A stretch of 64,000 nt of DNA, from positions 1 to 64,000 of IMG/VR virus record IMGVR_UViG_3300037247_001239. The stretch is one strand, 5' to 3'. Below, in pieces: positions 1 through 11,752 of the stretch. The notes under the pieces are model-generated. The model ran no database searches. It was not told the DNA's origin and was given only the letters and a program-made list of their open reading frames with translations. Made by a program: the position numbers and the translations under genes. Origin of the DNA: a virus. Each line of letters starts with the position of its first letter. Within the stretch, counting starts at the first letter, position 1.

Positions 1-472
1 CTCGACCTTCCTGACGACTGCATCCGGGGCGAAGTGATCCTTATTATTGCCCCAGAACAACTGACCAATCTGGTTGATGGCACCACAGAATCTATTACGA
101 GCCTCTGTCATTCCGTCACGCTCGGCCCGTAGCCGCTCGACCTCGGTTTCCAGGTCAAGAGCAATCTCCTGCATTCGGTCAGCTTCACCTTGCAGCCACT
201 TGACCTCTTTCTCCAAGCATCTTTTACACGGCGCGTGGTCCGTGGTCTGACCGCAAGCACATTGCTTCCAATAGCCTGCCATCACTCACTCCTTTTCTTC
301 GCGGCCTCGGTGGCTTGGTCCATGAATTCTTGGCTCGAATTCGCTCTGCCCTCCAGCACGGCCTCCACGCCGTTCGAGAAGATACCGAAACACTTTCGGC
401 AACGAATAGTTGGCTGGTGAGGCGACCTGTTCTCATCCGTCAGGCGGACGCCGCAACTGATGCATTTACTCA

Positions 473-5233: not shown

Positions 5234-5355
5234 GTCAACTCCCTTCCGTTTCCGTCACCACCGACTTCACCTCCACCACGTCGCCGCACTCGGGACACGC
5301 GTCCGGAGCCCAGCCCTCGGTGGTGCCCTCGTAATCGCAGTCGCGGTTCATGCAC

Positions 5356-5529
5356 CTAAGCCGCAGCATCGTCGGGGCCTTTCTGTATGGCATTGTCTCT
5401 GACAATCGGCACTTCCCGGGGAGCCTCGATCCCCAGCCGCACAATACCGCCATACACGCCAATAACTGTGATGGTGATGTCGGGGCCGATGTGAATCTTC
5501 TCGCCCCGTTTCCTACTAAGACACAACAT
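5356..5529 (-). CDS. csrA: Carbon storage regulator CsrA/RsmA homologue
   Basis: MLCLSRKRGEKIHIGPDITITVIGVYGGIVRLGIEAPREVPIVR matches the CsrA consensus; SD GGAGG upstream. Confidence 0.9.
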   Translation of the reverse strand: MLCLSRKRGEKIHIGPDITITVIGVYGGIVRLGIEAPREVPIVRDNAIQKGPDDAAA

Positions 5530-5624
5530 GATTTCCTCCTGATAAATTGGGGCCGCGGCCTCCTGCTTTGGCCCCGCGGGTCCATCCACGGCGTCCATGC
5601 CGTTGCCTTCCTCATGCCGGTGTC

Positions 5625-5789
5625 CTATAGTTCCTTGTTTGTCGCTTGCGGTATGCCTGCCCTTTCCCTCGGAGTCTCGTGCTTGTAGCAATCCTGACAA
5701 AGCACTGGAAACCCATGTCCCTCTTCAAAGCAAATACCGCAATGCGAGCACTGTAAGCCCTCGACCATAGCGTCTGCGATCTCGCCCAT
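5625..5789 (-). CDS. Small Zn-finger phage protein
   Basis: MGEIAD...CSHCG...LCQDC; SD upstream. Confidence 0.6.
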   Translation of the reverse strand: MGEIADAMVEGLQCSHCGICFEEGHGFPVLCQDCYKHETPRERAGIPQATNKEL

Positions 5790-6296: not shown

Positions 6297-6704
6297 TTAG
6301 CCGGTAGGCAGCAACGTTCCGTAGTGGCGTTTCTTGTGGCATGACCGACAAAGCCATTGCACATCGTCGGAACTATAATCCTCGTGATGACCCTCAATCC
6401 TTGCTGTCCTTCTGCATACACTGCATTGCTTTGGCCGGACCTTTTTGCCCTGCTTCAGCGCTTCGGCAAGACGCGAAGCAGCAGCCTTCTTTACTTTCGG
6501 GTCTTCTTCAAATGAGATATTCCTATCGTTCAGCACTTTAGCCCCTGCCCTCGCGCTGCATGAGTACCTGCAATACTTTCCCTTTCCTCGTTTCAATTCA
6601 GAGAGGGATACCCAGAAAGATGTGCCGCAGCCAATGCACCTTTGCTTAACACAACGAAATCGACGCGAATCTCGCTTAAGTGTACGACCACCAGAATCAA
6701 TCAT
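6297..6704 (-). CDS. HNH endonuclease-like Zn-binding protein
   Basis: CIGCG...KYCRYSC N-terminus; CSVC...EGHHEDYS...WLCRSCHKKRH C-terminus. Confidence 0.75.
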   Translation of the reverse strand: MIDSGGRTLKRDSRRFRCVKQRCIGCGTSFWVSLSELKRGKGKYCRYSCSARAGAKVLNDRNISFEEDPKVKKAAASRLAEALKQGKKVRPKQCSVCRRTARIEGHHEDYSSDDVQWLCRSCHKKRHYGTLLPTG

Positions 6705-6954
6705 CAGTGTTTCCTTTCCCAACCGCCCGCCGTGCTTTCGCGGGGCAGGCCACCTCGCTTGTAAAGTGCCCCCGACAGGAATCGAACCTGCCTCGCTTGC
6801 CATTGTTACGACGGAATCGAACCGCCAGCGGGGAATGTCCCATGGCCAACAAGGGCGTCATAGGGGCCACCTCCCAGGACCCCGTTGCAACGCTCCTTTC
6901 GTTCGTCCCTCTGCTGCACGCAGACAGGAACCGCACCATTGCGGCCGTTGCAAG

Positions 6955-7028
6955 TGCCGGGCCGTGGAATCGAACCACGATTACTGGCTTATGAGACCAG
7001 CGAGATCACCAGACCTTCCCACCCGGTA
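6955..7028 (-). tRNA. tRNA-Met (CAT), possibly initiator-like or Ile2
   Basis: Cloverleaf: acceptor ACCGGGT/GCCCGGC, anticodon arm CTGGT-CTCATAA-GCCAG, T arm CGTGG-TTCGATT-CCACG; no encoded CCA. Confidence 0.8.
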
Positions 7029-7526: not shown

Positions 7527-7596
7527 AACGCACGAATGAAACAGGACGCGCCGGCCGTCCGTTGCCGGCACGCCGGGGTAGATGGTTCGCTTCATG

Positions 7597-7707
7597 GGGT
7601 TCACTCGCCACCTTCAGACTCTCTGACTTCTCGGTTCACTCCTCTGCCGCAGACTCTCCGTGCCATCGGTTCACTCATTTCCCACAGACTCTCACTAACC
7701 GCGGTTA
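7597..7707 (-). repeat. TIGR-like dual-repeat mini-array (3 units)
   Basis: CAGACTCTC at 7615, 7650, 7685 alternating with (C)GGTTCACTC; 8-nt variable segments, 35-nt period; same repeats as the main array. Confidence 0.9.
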
Positions 7708-8442
7708 GTATTTGCGGACCATCGCCTTGATCTTCTCGAACCTTGCCGCCTGCTCCGCGTCGGCCAGGTCAATGGTCTTGCACTCCAACACGGCAAGGAA
7801 CGCATCCATTATCTGGAGGTTGTCGCGTTGCGTGAGCGGTCCACCTTTCTGTAATGCCAGTTTGGCTGAGGCCGAACCGGCACAGCAGTCCAGGGCTTTT
7901 TTCAGCACGCCAATAAACTTGCCGTTTACGCGGCGGTAGCTGCGGCTCTCCTTCTTCGGTGGCTCGCCCTTCTTGGGTTTCATCTCCGCCAGGCCCTCGA
8001 CAACCCGCGTGAGAATCAACCTCTCCAGCGTGACCGGGTCCATGCACAATATCTTGCTGATGCGCTTCAGGCTGTAGCCCTGCTGCTTCAGCCGATAGCC
8101 AATCCAGGCTTTGTCGCCGGGGTCCAGTTGCCGACCGTGCCTCGCGTTCAGTTCGACTGACTTTGCGAACCACTGCTTTTCGGGAAGCTTCAGAATCTCG
8201 GCCGCAATCTTCGTCTGCTTGGCCTTGCGGTGGATGAGGTAACGGTGTCGGCCGTCCAAACTCAGGAATGGATAGGGTCGTTTTGTCACCCTCACCAGTG
8301 CAATGGGCGGAAAGTTTGCACCCTGCTGGTAGGCATCCCAGTACTGGTTGACGGTAAACCAGTTGGCGTCGGCGTTCACCCGCGGGTAATACGCCGCCTC
8401 GAATCCGATATCGTCAAGCGGAATCATCGTGATTTCCGGCAT
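7705..8442 (-). CDS. ParB/Srx N-terminal-domain protein with HTH-like region
   Basis: YYPR...GANFPPI.L...LDGRHR (ParB GxxR-type box), ELNARHG..L...DK and a following helix-turn-helix-like segment; SD AAGGAG before the ATG at 8442. Confidence 0.8.
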   Translation of the reverse strand: MPEITMIPLDDIGFEAAYYPRVNADANWFTVNQYWDAYQQGANFPPIALVRVTKRPYPFLSLDGRHRYLIHRKAKQTKIAAEILKLPEKQWFAKSVELNARHGRQLDPGDKAWIGYRLKQQGYSLKRISKILCMDPVTLERLILTRVVEGLAEMKPKKGEPPKKESRSYRRVNGKFIGVLKKALDCCAGSASAKLALQKGGPLTQRDNLQIMDAFLAVLECKTIDLADAEQAARFEKIKAMVRKY

Positions 8443-8468
8443 GACATTCTCCTTTTGTAAGGTGTCAG

Positions 8469-9091
8469 AAAAACACTCGCATTTCGCAGACTCTCGGTTC
8501 TTCCGGTTCACTCTCACTCGCTATGGTTTACTCACGTGCGTCAGACTCTCTGCGGTCGCGGTTCACTCACCTGTGACAGACTCTCGGTAGTTCCGGTTCA
8601 CTCCGGCCTCCCAGATTCTCTATGAGCACGGTTCACTCGCGGTGGTCAGACTCTCCCCGCCGTCGGTTCACTCCGCCCCCACAGACTCTCGCTCGTTGCG
8701 GTTCACTCGTTGATCCCAGACTCTCGAAGAGCACGGTTTACTCCTTTCTTGCAGACTCTTCCCTCTCTCGGTTCACTCCGATGCGTCAGACTCTCACTCG
8801 TTGCGGTTCACTCACTTGTGACAGACCCTCGGCCGTTCCGGTTCACTCACAGCCAACAGGCTCTCAGCGATCACGGTTCACTCAGCCCGGTCAGACTCTC
8901 AGGAACGTCGGTTCACTCTCTTCCACAGACTCTCGCAGGAGACGGTTTACTCTCTTGGCGCAGACTCTCGGCGCTTGCGGTTCACTCCAGTCTGACAGAC
9001 TCTCGGTTTTCGCGGTTTACTCAAGTGCTTCGGATTCTCAATGGAAGCGGTTCACTCGAGCTTTGCAGACTCTCGCCGATGTCGGTTACTC
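8469..9091 (-). repeat. TIGR-like dual-repeat guide array (17 units)
   Basis: CAGACTCTC-type repeat at 8487, 8542, 8577, 8612, 8647, 8682, 8717, 8752, 8787, 8822, 8857, 8892, 8926, 8961, 8996, 9031, 9066 alternating with CGGTT(C/T)ACTC; variable 8-nt segments; starts at the stop codon of the Nop-domain gene. Confidence 0.92.
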
Positions 9092-10267
9092 CTCCCCATA
9101 CAAATGTTTCAGGGAATATCCCTCATACTCCCCTGGCCAGAGCGGCGGCTGAATCAAGTGTGCGTGTTGCTTGCCGTCCGGATGCTCGAAGATGAAGGGC
9201 GCCGGCGGCTCCTTACCCCAATACTCCCGGTACATGACGTGATGCAAATGAGACAAAAACAGCTTCACCGCCCACCGCCGGGCTCGAAAGTAAATCTGCT
9301 GCGGGGGCAACATCGGGACGCCGCTACCCGGCTGACCCTTGGGAATCTCGTCGTAGCCGTCGCCCTTCTTGGCGCAGGCCCGCACGACCTTGGGAACATA
9401 GCAACCGGACTTCCACGCATAGGCAGATGTGGCCTTGCCGACGCGATTCTCCCGCAGCCCTTGGGCAGCGTACTCCGAAAACTCGCCCGCAAGGTTCTGC
9501 TGCCACAAAGCCGCTTGCTTCTCCCACAGCAACCGCCCGTAGAAACACTTCTCCCGGTTCTTATTTTTGTTGAACGATTCGCCCAGGTGACCCAGGCAGA
9601 TCGTCTTCAACCGGCCATTGTAGGGACGGACGGAGAAAAACTTTACCAGCCCCTTGCTACCCTTCTCTGGAGCTTCTTCCTTGATGGCGTAGCCGTCGGT
9701 CCACACGCTTTGCAGCCTGACCCATTTCTGGCCGCTCCACTCCGACAGCTCTGTAATCTGCTCGTCGGTAATGGTGTCATCAATCCCAAGTTCCTTCAGT
9801 TTCTTTTGTGCGAGTTTACTGCCAGGCCACTTGAGGCTAGGGTCCAGCCCACCGAATCTCCAGATACCTCCTACCGTGGGCGCCTTGCGAATGTCGATGG
9901 TCGCAAGCAGGCCCGCCGAGATCACCGGCCCGATTCCGGTCTGGGCCAACATCCAGCGGCCAACAGCATAGCTCTTGGCAAACTCCGCCAAGAACCCTTT
10001 GATCGTGGCCTCCAGCCTGGACTCAGTGCTCTCCATCCATTCGATAAGCTCGTACGGTTCGCCCGCTAACTTTTCTGTCCTACCCTGGTGTGCGGCCCTG
10101 ATTCGCGCCCGTTGGAATGAGTAATACCTGTCCGTCAGGTAACGGGCGCCGGCGATCGAAATACCAGCCACCTTCCGTTTCAGTTCCCGCGAAAGCATCA
10201 CGGCAAAGTCACTTTCGCCGTTGCGGTCCGCGTCTTCAGGTGGGGCAGCTTCACAAACCTGCGACAT
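9086..10267 (-). CDS. TasA-like Nop-domain / IS110-related RNA-binding protein (no nuclease domain seen)
   Basis: YYSFQRARIR coiled coil, GIGPVISAGLLATID...GGIWRFGGL (IS110 Transposase_20/Nop motif), YNGRLKT, RARRWAVKLFLSHL; no DEDD RuvC or HNH visible; SD CAGGAG; adjacent to the dual-repeat array. Confidence 0.8.
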   Translation of the reverse strand: MSQVCEAAPPEDADRNGESDFAVMLSRELKRKVAGISIAGARYLTDRYYSFQRARIRAAHQGRTEKLAGEPYELIEWMESTESRLEATIKGFLAEFAKSYAVGRWMLAQTGIGPVISAGLLATIDIRKAPTVGGIWRFGGLDPSLKWPGSKLAQKKLKELGIDDTITDEQITELSEWSGQKWVRLQSVWTDGYAIKEEAPEKGSKGLVKFFSVRPYNGRLKTICLGHLGESFNKNKNREKCFYGRLLWEKQAALWQQNLAGEFSEYAAQGLRENRVGKATSAYAWKSGCYVPKVVRACAKKGDGYDEIPKGQPGSGVPMLPPQQIYFRARRWAVKLFLSHLHHVMYREYWGKEPPAPFIFEHPDGKQHAHLIQPPLWPGEYEGYSLKHLYGEE

Positions 10268-10438
10268 GGGAATCTCCTGTTTGGAAACAAGCACCCCGCG
10301 GCCAGCCCGCCGCCGACCGCAGGGTGTGGAAGCGACCACTCGAATCAGAGCCGACCAAAGCCAGAAGGCGAGTCGTCGCTGGGAAAGTCAGAAGCATGGT
10401 CGGCTCTCGTTCACGGGTTTTCGTTCCGCGTGAAAAGC

Positions 10439-10468
10439 AGAATAGCAGACAGGCCACTTTCCCGTCAA
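10439..10468 (-). promoter_or_regulatory. Sigma70-like promoter for the Tas/array/ParB operon
   Basis: TTGACG-18nt-TATTCT with TG just upstream of the -10. Confidence 0.55.
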
Positions 10469-10520
10469 GACGACGTTTGGATATTTTTTGCCGGACCAGC
10501 AAAATGGTCCTGCCGTAATC

Positions 10521-10549
10521 TTGACACGTTCGGCCGAATTGGCTAGGTT
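10521..10549 (+). promoter_or_regulatory. Sigma70-like promoter (divergent)
   Basis: TTGACA-17nt-TAGGTT. Confidence 0.6.
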
Positions 10550-10643
10550 GGCGGACACGCCCTGATTGCGGTGCCAGTCGCCTGGCAACAGATGTCCGCG
10601 TTCGGCCGCCCGTTTTTCGTCCCCCCTCACAAGGAGCAATGTC

Positions 10644-10883: not shown

Positions 10884-10890
10884 TTGTTTC

Positions 10891-10919
10891 TTGACTCGGC
10901 GGGCCGTATCGGCTAGGTT
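10891..10919 (+). promoter_or_regulatory. Sigma70-like promoter
   Basis: TTGACT-17nt-TAGGTT; shares GGCTAGGTTGGCG with the 10521 promoter. Confidence 0.55.
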
Positions 10920-11263
10920 GGCGAATGCCAGCCGCCTGGTCGACTCAAATACCGCCTCACCGAAGAGGCAGGGCCCATCCCGGAGGTCCGAGGGGGTCGC
11001 AACCTTTGATGCTACTCTGGTTGCCGGTCGCAAGACCGAGAGGCATCGCGCCAGGCCCGCCATCCGGCTGGAGACGTTCCAGGAGCCCGCGACAACTGGC
11101 AAGAACCGAAGCTAGAGCGGAAAGTCCGCTTGGGCACCCGCATACGAAAGCGGCTCGGCATTCGGGTTGTCGCACCCATTGCCCACGACCAGGGCAGTAC
11201 GTGGAAGGCTAGCGATGTAGCCACGTCAAAAATCCAGAACGGAGGCCCTGGGGGAATTGCAGC

Positions 11264-11752
11264 ATGGGTGCATACCAAAAGCGCAACAGGCGATTGGAAA
11301 AGCTCGGTTACGAGTCCTATGAGGAGTATCTACAAAGCAACCTCTGGAATTCCATTCGCAGCCGCGTTATGACCCGAGACCAGCAGAAATGCCGCATTTG
11401 TGGAGGTCGGGCGTCGAATGTCCACCATTGGGGCTACCGCGAACCCACCCTGCTGGGGAAGTGCTTACTGGAGTTGTGGGCACTCTGCCGCAAATGCCAC
11501 CTGTTTATCGAGTTCGAGAAAAACGGCGAAAAAGCCAAATTTGGCAGTGCTCGTAGGCGACTGAAAATACTCTGCCGTCTAAAGGGATTGACATTTGACT
11601 CGGTCAACCCGCGGTGGGATGGAAAACCACCCCCTAAACGACGAAAACGGCGGCGATGCCAATTCTGCGGCATACGAAAGACCTTGGGCACGTTCCGCAC
11701 TACAGAAAACCCTGTCTGCCGTAAATGTGAGAAGGAACTCGCAATAGTATAG
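11264..11752 (+). CDS. HNH endonuclease
   Basis: YEEYLQS..W..IR..V..RD..KCRICG....VHH..Y...LCRKCH. Confidence 0.85.
   Translation: MGAYQKRNRRLEKLGYESYEEYLQSNLWNSIRSRVMTRDQQKCRICGGRASNVHHWGYREPTLLGKCLLELWALCRKCHLFIEFEKNGEKAKFGSARRRLKILCRLKGLTFDSVNPRWDGKPPPKRRKRRRCQFCGIRKTLGTFRTTENPVCRKCEKELAIV

What the first reader, a model, noticed from the sequence alone, without database searches (positions are those of the whole stretch)
7597..10468. Phage TIGR-Tas-like RNA-guided system: nuclease-less Nop protein, guide array and ParB partner
Seen: one minus-strand unit of promoter, 393-aa Nop/IS110-like gene, 17-unit dual-repeat array, ParB-like gene and a 3-unit array. Established: TIGR-Tas systems pair a Nop-domain protein with arrays of alternating edge/loop repeats and two short spacers that read both DNA strands without a PAM; TasA lacks a nuclease; ParB-family proteins are CTP-dependent DNA clamps. 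Inference: guides direct the Tas protein to about 20 DNA sites where it recruits or loads the ParB-like protein, giving programmable silencing, partition or interference against host genes or competing elements rather than cutting. ParB-linked Tas loci may already be catalogued, so novelty needs checking.
Basis: partly seen in the sequence, partly recalled or inferred. Interest (0 to 1): 0.95.

Follow-up and report, generated by a model that had tools for sequence, protein, structure and literature searches.

The report
Phage TIGR-TasA guide system with ParB
A marine-sediment phage carries a genuine TIGR-Tas RNA-guided DNA-binding system (a nuclease-free TasA protein, 20 dual-spacer guides and a ParB-like gene embedded in the guide array), a kind of locus published in 2025, so it is a clean new example and not a new class.

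Summary
On the minus strand lie a promoter-like site, a 393-aa gene, a 17-unit array of 35-nt units, a 245-aa gene, a 3-unit array and a terminator hairpin.

- **The 393-aa protein is a TasA.** It passes NCBI's curated TIGR-Tas model. Its high-confidence fold matches solved TasH and TasR over their coiled-coil and Nop parts only, so it has no nuclease domain.
- **The 245-aa protein has a ParB/Srx N-domain plus helix-turn-helix fold.** It carries DGRHR where canonical ParB has GERR.
- **The arrays are dual-repeat TIGR arrays.** They use 8+8-nt spacers, and 63 of 80 viral Tas relatives carry the same kind of array.
- **This arrangement is already published.** Faure et al. 2025 (Science, fig. S14) describe tasA-tasParB operons with arrays upstream, downstream and between the genes. 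Xu et al. 2026 showed that TasA represses transcription. This scan has also met such loci before on other DNA, in at least 27 genomes.

My survey adds one point. None of 107 related Tas loci carries this ParB-like family, and none of 51 loci of that family carries Tas. Those relatives sit beside a helicase or an unknown 190-aa gene. The pairing here therefore looks like a local recruitment, and a working link between ParB and Tas remains inferred. No guide matches the phage's own genome.

Verdict: new member of a known kind.

The parts
10439..10468 (-). promoter-like site TTGACG-18-TATTCT with a TG extension
   Evidence: This is a consensus match only; one such site is about what shuffles of the region give.
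10292..10326 (-). G+C-rich hairpin of about 14-15 bp in the 5' leader, followed by CUUGUUUCC, just upstream of the tas ribosome-binding site
   Evidence: -39.4 kcal/mol for the 73-nt leader, z = -3.5, and 0 of 200 shuffles fold as well. Its role as an attenuator or stabiliser is unknown.
9086..10267 (-). tasA: a 393-aa Tas protein with coiled-coil and Nop domains and no nuclease domain
   Evidence: NCBIfam NF052498 scores 111.7 bits against a cut-off of 100. The AF2 model has pLDDT 89. The ten best Foldseek matches are all TasH or TasR. VIA-align gives Z 18.7 to TasH residues 64-309 and Z 17.4 to TasR residues 112-322. There are 1354 homologues.
8474..9088 (-). TIGR array 1: 17 complete 35-nt units (edge GAGTGAACCG, spacer A 8 nt, loop GAGAGTCTG, spacer B 8 nt). 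The first edge is 5'-truncated (TAACCG) and contains the tas stop codon. The last edge is 3'-truncated (GAGTG).
   Evidence: The RNA shows no significant structure (z = -0.6), as expected for the dual-repeat type rather than the stem-loop type.
8514..8523 (-). broken unit inside array 1: two edge repeats 20 nt apart, with the loop repeat and spacer B missing
7705..8442 (-). ParB-like gene (245 aa): ParB/Srx N-domain (residues 1-105) with DGRHR at 63-67, helix-turn-helix (about 106-148), and a C-terminal beta-hairpin plus helical domain
   Evidence: The AF2 model has pLDDT 92.8. Foldseek's top matches are ParB, Noc and KorB. VIA-align gives Z 13.7, rmsd 2.0 A over 96 residues, to B. subtilis ParB. 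A family profile matches ParB chains in the PDB at E = 1e-9. PHROG 1033 'ParB-like partition protein' matches at 2.8e-5.
7597..7707 (-). TIGR array 2: 3 units with the same repeats. The first edge is again 5'-truncated (TAACCG) and contains the parB-like stop codon.
7545..7574 (-). terminator-like hairpin (11 pairs, 9 of them G-C) followed by CUGUUUCAUU

Best explanation
This is a phage-borne dual-repeat TIGR-TasA system transcribed as one unit, from about 10468 to about 7540 on the minus strand.

**Proposed mechanism.**
1. The long transcript carries tasA, 17 guides, a ParB-like gene and 3 more guides.
2. By analogy with studied TIGR systems, it is cut inside the edge repeats into RNAs of about 35 nt. 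Each RNA holds two 8-nt spacers separated by the loop repeat.
3. A TasA dimer binds each RNA through its Nop domains.
4. [quoted passage not shown]
5. TasA has no nuclease, so the outcome is binding, which blocks transcription or replication, and not cutting.

**Role of the ParB-like protein.** It is co-expressed and is most likely an accessory that acts on the DNA held by TasA. It has a ParB/Srx nucleotide-pocket fold, a helix-turn-helix and a probable dimerising tail.

**Targets.** They lie outside the phage, in the host or in competing mobile elements.

**Shown here:** the identity and fold of both proteins, the array anatomy, the single-unit layout, and the absence of self-targets.
**Inferred:** RNA processing, DNA binding, repression, and any cooperation between Tas and ParB.
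For: - **Tas identity.** The protein passes the curated TIGR-Tas model.
- **Tas fold.** It matches TasH at Z 18.7 and TasR at Z 17.4 over their non-nuclease parts only. IS621 follows at Z 13 and Nop5 at Z 7.8. The model is all-helical, with only 33 residues ahead of the coiled coil.
- **Array type.** The arrays have the edge/loop architecture, with a 5'-truncated first edge and a 3'-truncated last edge, as described for TIGR arrays (PMC12045711 section 4).
- **Arrays in relatives.** 63 of 80 viral Tas relatives have arrays of 34-38 nt period beside tas. On the tas strand these arrays consist of two alternating 10-nt repeats of the form GAG...CCA with 8-nt spacers.
- **One transcription unit.** All parts lie on the same strand. 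No terminator was found between tas, array 1, parB and array 2. Both genes have ribosome-binding sites. There is one promoter-like site upstream and one hairpin terminator downstream.
- **Integration of the ParB-like gene.** Its stop codon is built into an edge repeat in exactly the same way as the tas stop codon.
- **Published precedent.** tasA-tasParB operons with arrays between the genes and a DGFHR motif are described in PMC12045711 (Methods and fig. S14). TasA ribonucleoproteins bind target DNA and repress transcription (bioRxiv 10.64898/2026.09.09.750476).
- **No self-targets.** No guide matches the phage's own 74.6 kb with one mismatch or fewer in any geometry.
Against: - There are no RNA data for this DNA, so transcription and processing are inferred.
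- The box C-like ends of the repeats read CCG and CUG here, whereas relatives and studied systems have the conserved CCA.
- The tyrosine of the Y/H processing dyad reported for TasH could not be placed. The candidate position 358 is Phe here, although His368 is invariant.
- The Tas-ParB partnership lacks comparative support in my samples. None of 107 Tas loci carries this ParB-like family, and none of 51 loci of that family carries Tas or an array.
- No target was found for any guide.
Confidence: 0.78

Rival explanations
1. The TIGR-TasA system is real, but the ParB-like gene is unrelated cargo. On this reading it is a common phage DNA-metabolism gene that landed inside the array, is merely co-transcribed, and does its usual job independently of TasA.
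For: - None of 51 loci encoding relatives of this ParB-like protein has a Tas gene or array within 5 kb.
- These relatives sit upstream of a phrog_16 DNA helicase in 18 loci, and downstream of a conserved phrog_4652-like protein of about 190 aa in 9-10 loci.
- None of 107 Tas loci carries this family, and no protein gene recurs beside tas in them.
- No Tas-ParB fusion exists among 150 representatives of the family.
Against: - The gene's stop codon is embedded in a truncated edge repeat exactly like that of tas. It has no terminator of its own and no evident promoter. It splits the array cleanly between units.
- Neither of its usual neighbours exists in the held part of this phage.
- Operons of tasA with ParB-like genes are a published recurrent pattern (PMC12045711), and other windows of this scan report the same (unchecked notes).
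Confidence: 0.3
2. The ParB-like protein supplies in trans the catalytic activity that TasA lacks, namely nicking, cleavage or a DNA-modification-related activity of the ParB/Srx superfamily. On this reading the system destroys or marks its targets instead of merely sitting on them.
For: - The ParB/Srx fold includes nucleases such as the pNOB8-like ParB-N domain, which matches at Z 10.8, and other NTP-using enzymes.
- The invariant residues R21, D63, G64 and R67, with H66 and N99 nearly invariant, form a conserved pocket.
- Faure et al. note the DndB-like DGQHR/DGFHR motif and suggest an alternative enzymatic function (PMC12045711, fig. S14 legend).
Against: The best structural matches are the CTP-binding clamps ParB, Noc and KorB, not nucleases. 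No activity can be read from sequence. Relatives occur in replication-module contexts.
Confidence: 0.1
3. The arrays are not guide-RNA genes. Instead they are centromere-like protein-binding iterons, comparable with the tandem repeats of the F-plasmid sopC site, for the ParB-like protein in a partition system.
For: Tandem direct repeats lie next to a ParB-fold gene, and the phage might be maintained as a plasmid. These points rest on my own knowledge of plasmid partition sites.
Against: - The same array architecture accompanies Tas homologues in 63 of 80 viral loci that have no ParB at all.
- None of 51 ParB-like loci has such an array.
- The arrays are strictly co-oriented with tas, with truncated terminal edges.
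- No ParA-type ATPase (PF13614) was found in the record, although the record is only about 66% complete.
Confidence: 0.03

Closest known systems
tasA-tasParB dual-repeat TIGR loci (Faure et al. [quoted passage not shown] S14)
   Same: - A nuclease-free TasA is operonic with a ParB-like gene.
- Dual-repeat arrays lie downstream of and between the two genes.
- The repeats are about 10 nt long.
- A DG-x-HR motif occupies the position of the ParB catalytic box.
- The element is a phage or other mobile element.
   Different: - The motif is DGRHR here, against the published DGFHR.
- The loop repeat is 9 nt, giving a 35-nt unit.
- The repeat ends read CCG and CUG instead of CCA.
- The nearest relatives of this ParB-like protein that I could read are not next to Tas. 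Whether it belongs to the published TasParB clade could not be tested, because no TasParB sequence is in the held supplement.
Solved dual-repeat Tas nucleases: TaTasR (PDB 9mty) and SpTasH (PDB 9w03, 9w04, 21kl)
   Same: The coiled-coil plus Nop fold matches at Z 17-19. The arrays are dual-repeat. SpTIGR also uses 8+8-nt spacers (PMC12045711 section 6).
   Different: There is no RuvC or HNH domain: the model aligns only from TasR residue 112 and TasH residue 64 onward. A helical insertion of about 70 aa (residues 145-215) is present in only some relatives.
TasA transcriptional repressors MbTasA and BlTasA (Xu et al. 2026, bioRxiv 10.64898/2026.09.09.750476)
   Same: These are nuclease-free Tas proteins. 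Their experimentally shown function, RNA-guided DNA binding and repression, is the function proposed here.
   Different: Those proteins use stem-loop arrays and lack the C-terminal processing loop. This one uses dual-repeat arrays and keeps a long C-terminal loop with an invariant His368.
ParB, Noc and KorB CTP-dependent DNA clamps (e.g. PDB 6sdk, 7bnr, 7nfu, 8qa9)
   Same: The N-domain fold matches at Z 13-14 with rmsd 2.0 A. A helix-turn-helix follows the N-domain. Counterparts exist for box I (YPR), the PI(V)V strand, box II and box III (ELN).
   Different: GERR is replaced by DGRHR, and the residue at the position of the Glu is not conserved. No ParA was found in the record and no parS-like site was looked for. 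CTP binding is untested.
DndB and other DGQHR-type ParB/Srx proteins
   Same: They share the DG-x-HR signature on the ParB/Srx fold, a likeness noted by Faure et al. for TasParB.
   Different: No dnd or other modification genes lie nearby. No NCBIfam or PADLOC model matched. Only 1 of 150 family representatives has Q at the variable position.
IS110/IS621 bridge-RNA recombinases and archaeal Nop5 box C/D RNPs
   Same: They share the Nop-type RNA-binding fold: Z 13 to IS621 and Z 7.8 to Nop5. There is also a weak Pfam PF02371 hit.
   Different: This protein has no DEDD/RuvC recombinase domain, no single bridge RNA, no fibrillarin partner and no K-turn motifs.

Membership tests
TIGR-Tas systems | A Tas protein with the coiled-coil plus Nop RNA-binding fold | tested here: met
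   NF052498 scores 111.7 bits against a cut-off of 100. Foldseek ranks 1-10 are all TasH or TasR. VIA-align gives Z 18.7 and 17.4.
TIGR-Tas systems | An adjacent array of alternating edge and loop repeats separating two short spacers per unit | tested here: met
   There are 17+3 units of 35 nt: a 10-nt edge, an 8-nt spacer, a 9-nt loop and an 8-nt spacer. The same architecture is found in relatives.
TIGR-Tas systems | Box D (UG) and box C (CCA) motifs flanking each spacer | tested here: inconclusive
   Both repeats start with GAG and end with CCG or CUG. The edge repeat contains UG..CC. Relatives keep GAG...CCA. The terminal A is G here.
TIGR-Tas systems | The array begins with a 5'-truncated edge and ends with a 3'-truncated edge followed by a terminator | tested here: met
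   TAACCG starts both arrays. GAGTG ends array 1. A hairpin terminator follows array 2.
TIGR-Tas systems | The array is transcribed and processed into tigRNAs of about 36 nt bound by Tas, which guide DNA binding through both spacers | not testable with these tools
   No RNA run holds this DNA. This needs pull-down small-RNA sequencing and binding assays.
TasA subclass (nuclease-free) | No HNH or RuvC domain ahead of the coiled coil | tested here: met
   The model aligns from residue 34-39 to TasH residue 64 and TasR residue 112. Residues 1-15 are disordered, and the model is all-helical.
Dual-repeat Tas (self-processing) | A Y/H catalytic dyad on the extended C-terminal loop (Y289 and H296 in SpTasH) | tested here: inconclusive
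   A long loop of low pLDDT is present at 361-364. His368 is invariant and His370 nearly so. No conserved Tyr could be placed, and position 358 is Phe here and Tyr or Phe in relatives.
TasParB (ParB-like partner of TasA) | ParB/Srx fold with a DG-x-HR motif at the catalytic-box position | tested here: met
   Searches show the fold. DGRHR lies at residues 63-67.
TasParB (ParB-like partner of TasA) | Operonic with tasA, with arrays flanking or between the genes | tested here: met
   The genes share a strand and are 643 nt apart. That gap holds array 1 and a short leader with the parB ribosome-binding site, with no terminator in it. Array 2 follows.
TasParB (ParB-like partner of TasA) | The pairing with tas is conserved among homologues | tested here: not met
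   0 of 51 ParB-like loci carry Tas or arrays, and 0 of 107 Tas loci carry this family.
Canonical ParB CTPase clamp / ParABS partition | A GERRxR box II with the catalytic Glu | tested here: not met
   The aligned residues are G64-R65-H66-R67. Position 65 varies (L, W, R, K, V, Y) across the family.
Canonical ParB CTPase clamp / ParABS partition | A ParA ATPase partner in the element | tested here: inconclusive
   There is no PF13614 match in the 74.6-kb record, but the record is estimated to be 66% complete.

The most novel reading that the evidence does not exclude
The ParB-like gene was captured into the TIGR array independently of the published TasParB clade. Its source would be a widespread phage ParB-like family that normally works beside a helicase or a phrog_4652-like protein.

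If so, TIGR-TasA systems repeatedly recruit ParB/Srx nucleotide-switch proteins as their effector arm. TasA-tigRNA would then mark a 16-bp site, much as a programmable parS would. The ParB-like dimer would load there and spread or clamp, giving RNA-programmed silencing or exclusion over a region and not just at a point.
Probability: 0.2. Interest if true: 0.7.

Novelty: new member of a known kind. Interest (0 to 1): 0.35.

Why it matters
TIGR-Tas is a young family, first described in 2025. The natural targets and the role of the ParB-like partner of nuclease-free TasA are both still open.

- **A tractable test case.** The locus is compact and intact, about 2.9 kb from promoter to terminator. 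It holds 20 distinct 8+8-nt guides, and the ParB-like gene is physically woven into the array. It could be cloned as one piece to ask whether the ParB-like protein changes what TasA does.
- **A caution on partnership.** The ParB-like protein comes from a family that in 51 other loci has nothing to do with Tas. Any claimed partnership therefore needs a direct test. If the partnership is real, it points to repeated recruitment of ParB-type proteins by RNA-guided binders.

Tried and rejected
The contigs of the closest Tas homologues (P0002-P0010, 43-55% identical) could therefore not be read.

I then parsed the spacers from the window file inside the script.
- I did not search public collections for guide targets. 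That needs typed joined sequences (spacer A plus the reverse complement of spacer B), which the rules do not allow. By rough estimate, a 16-mer would also give on the order of a hundred chance hits in a library of that size.

**Target searches that found nothing.**
- In the phage's own 74.6 kb, with the arrays masked, I tested four half-site orders and gaps of 0-3. There were 0 hits with one mismatch or fewer. Hits with two mismatches were at the level of mis-paired A/B controls.
- In 0.93 Mb of fetched loci there were no exact hits, and one-mismatch hits were at chance level.

**Expression.** No RNA holder is listed. The only holder is a marine-sediment metagenome DNA run that may be the source of this DNA.

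**Database searches that gave little.**
- Single-sequence Pfam gave only weak hits for both proteins.
- The word-indexed homologue search found no relative of the ParB-like protein. The exhaustive HMMER search found 694.
- GenBank phages hold no relative of the ParB-like protein and only one marginal Tas match.
- PADLOC gave nothing.
- Rfam found only the tRNA.
- This TasA is not in the held part of the supplement of Faure et al., whose Table S1 was cut when stored. No TasParB sequence is held there either.
- Relatives cannot be drawn for a virus record. The terminase is at most 27% identical to that of any GenBank phage, so no host could be inferred.

**Leads that turned out to be nothing.**
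- A 33-nt 'array' beside the ParB-like gene in L091 is a coding repeat, not a TIGR array.
- The centromere (iteron) reading of the arrays is rejected; the reasons are given under the rival explanations.
Full report
**What is there**

All parts lie on the minus strand between 10468 and about 7540.

- **Promoter-like site:** TTGACG-18-TATTCT at 10468-10439.
- **Leader hairpin:** a strong G+C hairpin at 10326-10292 (z = -3.5; 0 of 200 shuffles fold as well).
- **tas gene:** a 393-aa ORF at 10267-9086, with AGGAG upstream of its ATG.
- **Array 1 (9088-8474):** 17 units of 35 nt.
- **ParB-like gene:** a 245-aa ORF at 8442-7705, with its own AGGAG.
- **Array 2 (7707-7597):** 3 units.
- **Terminator:** an 11-bp G+C hairpin with a U-rich tail at 7574-7545.

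Each unit reads GAGTGAACCG, 8 nt, GAGAGTCTG, 8 nt. Exact copies of both repeats occur only in the two arrays within the window. Nothing comparable lies in the remaining 10 kb of the record. One unit, at 8523-8514, has lost its loop repeat and second spacer.

Both genes end with TAA inside the sequence TAACCG. [quoted passage not shown] Array 1 ends in a 3'-truncated edge, GAGTG. This matches the description of TIGR arrays in Faure et al. (PMC12045711, section 4).

**The 393-aa protein is a TasA**

- Single-sequence Pfam gave only a sub-threshold IS110 C-terminal hit.
- NCBI's curated model NF052498 ('TIGR-Tas system RNA-guided endonuclease') is passed, with 111.7 bits against a cut-off of 100.
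- A profile of 32 homologues hits TaTasR (PDB 9mty) at E = 4e-16.
- The AlphaFold model has pLDDT 89. Its ten best Foldseek matches are all TasH or TasR cryo-EM structures.
- VIA-align gives Z 18.7 to TasH, Z 17.4 to TasR, Z 13 to the IS621 recombinase and Z 7.8 to archaeal Nop5.
- The alignments begin at model residue 34-39 and at TasH residue 64 and TasR residue 112. These positions lie after the HNH and RuvC domains.
- Residues 1-15 of the model are disordered, and no beta structure is present.

The protein is therefore the coiled-coil plus Nop core alone, which makes it a TasA.

A helical insertion of about 70 aa (residues 145-215) is present in some relatives and absent from others. The C-terminal loop reported to carry the Y/H processing dyad in SpTasH (Y289 and H296; PMC13421893) exists here, with low pLDDT at 361-364. 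It carries an invariant His368, but I could not place a conserved tyrosine.

**The arrays belong to the protein**

The family is large: 1354 proteins match at E <= 1e-3. IMG/VR holds 432 matching stretches, and 27 loci were found in bacterial and archaeal genome assemblies. In 63 of the 80 best viral loci, an array of 34-38 nt period lies directly beside tas.

Read on the tas strand, those arrays consist of two alternating 10-nt repeats with 8-nt spacers, such as GAGCGAGCCA and GAGAGAACCA. This is the layout of the window. Here, however, the repeat ends read CCG and CUG instead of CCA, and the loop repeat is one base shorter.

The array RNA has no significant fold (z = -0.6), as expected for the dual-repeat type and not the stem-loop type. 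A variable length of 8+8 nt is already known from the SpTasH system (PMC12045711, section 6).

**The 245-aa protein is ParB-like**

- The word-indexed homologue search found nothing. The exhaustive HMMER search found 694 cluster representatives.
- A profile of 37 of them matches ParB, Noc and Spo0J chains at E = 1e-9 to 1e-5, and sulfiredoxins at 1e-4.
- The model has pLDDT 92.8. Its best matches are CTP-bound ParB, Noc and KorB.
- VIA-align gives Z 13.7 and rmsd 2.0 A over 96 residues for the N-domain. A helix-turn-helix and a C-terminal beta-hairpin/helical domain follow.
- Invariant or nearly invariant residues are YPR (19-21), FPP (44-46), D63, G64, H66, R67 and E-L-N (97-99).
- In the profile alignment, GRHR takes the place of the GERR box, and the position of the catalytic glutamate is variable.

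A nucleotide pocket is therefore plausible. A canonical CTPase switch is not established.

**What is already known**

Faure et al. [quoted passage not shown] They also report a conserved DGFHR motif resembling the DGQHR of DndB, and an AlphaFold3 model in which TasParB interacts only weakly with TasA (PMC12045711, Discussion, Methods and the fig. S14 legend).

Xu et al. 2026 catalogued 6,685 arrays and showed that TasA ribonucleoproteins bind target DNA and repress transcription. Notes from this scan list similar loci in at least 27 other genomes (unchecked).

The kind of system is therefore known.

**What my survey adds**

I looked for the pairing from both sides.

- **From the Tas side.** Among 107 Tas loci (80 viral and 27 genomic, with 4-5 kb of flank), a profile of the ParB-like family finds nothing, even at E = 10 in the viral set. 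No protein gene recurs next to tas beyond spurious ORFs that run across the arrays. The closest viral relative, L001 (44% identity), has a small array but no ParB.
- **From the ParB side.** Among 51 loci encoding relatives of the ParB-like protein (21 metagenomic and 30 viral), none has a Tas gene or an array. Instead, 18 are followed by a phrog_16 DNA helicase. Another 9-10, including the closest relatives, are preceded by a conserved phrog_4652-like protein of about 190 aa and unknown function.
- **In this phage.** Neither of those usual neighbours is encoded in the held record. There is no Tas-ParB fusion among 150 representatives of the family.
- **Motif spread.** The variable residue in DG-x-HR is W, R, K, L, A, Y, V or F across the family. 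Five representatives carry the published DGFHR.

Two readings remain. The pairing could be a functional recruitment, possibly independent of the published TasParB clade. Or the gene could be cargo that landed in the array.

I lean to the first, at roughly 55-60% against 30%. The reasons are that the stop codon is built into an edge repeat exactly like that of tas, the gene has no terminator of its own and no evident promoter, and its usual neighbours are absent. The decisive tests could not be run here, because the look-up of encoding contigs and complex prediction were both unavailable.

**Guides and targets**

- All 20 guides are distinct.
- Guides 8 and 15 share 13 of 16 variable positions, and 0 of 500 shuffles reach that value. 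TRF also sees a 3-unit super-period. Either the array grew partly by duplication and divergence, or two guides read variants of one site.
- No guide matches the phage's own 74.6 kb with one mismatch or fewer, in any half-site order or with a gap of 0-3. Two-mismatch hits equal those of mis-paired controls.
- Nothing was found in 0.93 Mb of related loci.

Self-regulation of phage genes is therefore unlikely. The targets should lie in the host or in competing elements, which remain unknown.

**Context**

The record is a 74.6-kb IMG/VR virus contig, classed as linear and estimated about 66% complete. It comes from a marine-sediment metagenome. It encodes a large terminase, a virion protein, an exonuclease, a Sak4-like annealing protein and a CsrA-like regulator. 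It has no close relative in GenBank.

**Verdict**

This is a real, intact phage TIGR-TasA locus with a ParB-like gene woven into its guide array. It is a new member of a published kind.

The RNA-guided binding mechanism is well supported by homology and anatomy. My synteny data neither support nor exclude it.

Noticed in passing
L091:1-170 and 800-1070; L084:4501-4560 and 5337-5424: In other contigs, genes of this ParB-like family are flanked by unusual period-5 tracts of the form nTGCn (TTGCT TTGCA CTGCT ...). These tracts are bounded by GGAGTGRAYGAAC motifs, whose core resembles the edge repeat of the window. They may be protein-binding or regulatory tracts.
   Followed up: no
L083, L086, L090, L091, L092, L095, L096, L098 (gene just upstream of the ParB-like gene); L129-L156 (gene just downstream): The ParB-like family has two recurrent neighbours in other phages. 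One is a conserved phrog_4652-like protein of about 190 aa and unknown function. The other is a phrog_16 DNA helicase, found in 18 loci. Neither is encoded in the held record of this phage.
   Followed up: partly
window 8803-8838 and 8558-8593 (guides 8 and 15); 8576-8813: Two guides share 13 of 16 spacer positions, a value reached by 0 of 500 shuffles. TRF reports a 105-nt (three-unit) super-period. This hints that TIGR arrays can grow by segmental duplication and divergence.
   Followed up: partly
window 6297-6803 (-) and 11264-11752 (+): Two stand-alone HNH endonuclease genes (PHROG hits at 7e-16 and 1e-8) flank the Tas unit on either side. A tRNA-Met gene lies at 6954-7027 (-), between the unit and the downstream HNH gene. 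No link to the nuclease-free TasA was tested.
   Followed up: no
window 10519-10553 and 10889-10923 (+): A 35-nt direct repeat (83% identical) carries TTGACN-N17-TAGGTT. It lies ahead of the divergently transcribed plus-strand genes and probably marks a pair of related promoters.
   Followed up: no
window 10292-10326 (-): A very stable hairpin followed by a U-rich run sits between the promoter-like site and the tas ribosome-binding site. It may be an attenuator or a processing/stability element.
   Followed up: partly
window 1-127 and record 74350-74476: A 127-nt exact direct repeat links the start of the record to a site about 100 nt from its end. It may be an assembly overlap or the remnant of a terminal repeat. 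IMG/VR classes the record as linear and about 66% complete.
   Followed up: no
window 5356-5700 (-): A phage-encoded CsrA-like regulator (Pfam CsrA at 1.6e-20) lies 2 kb downstream of the Tas unit.
   Followed up: no
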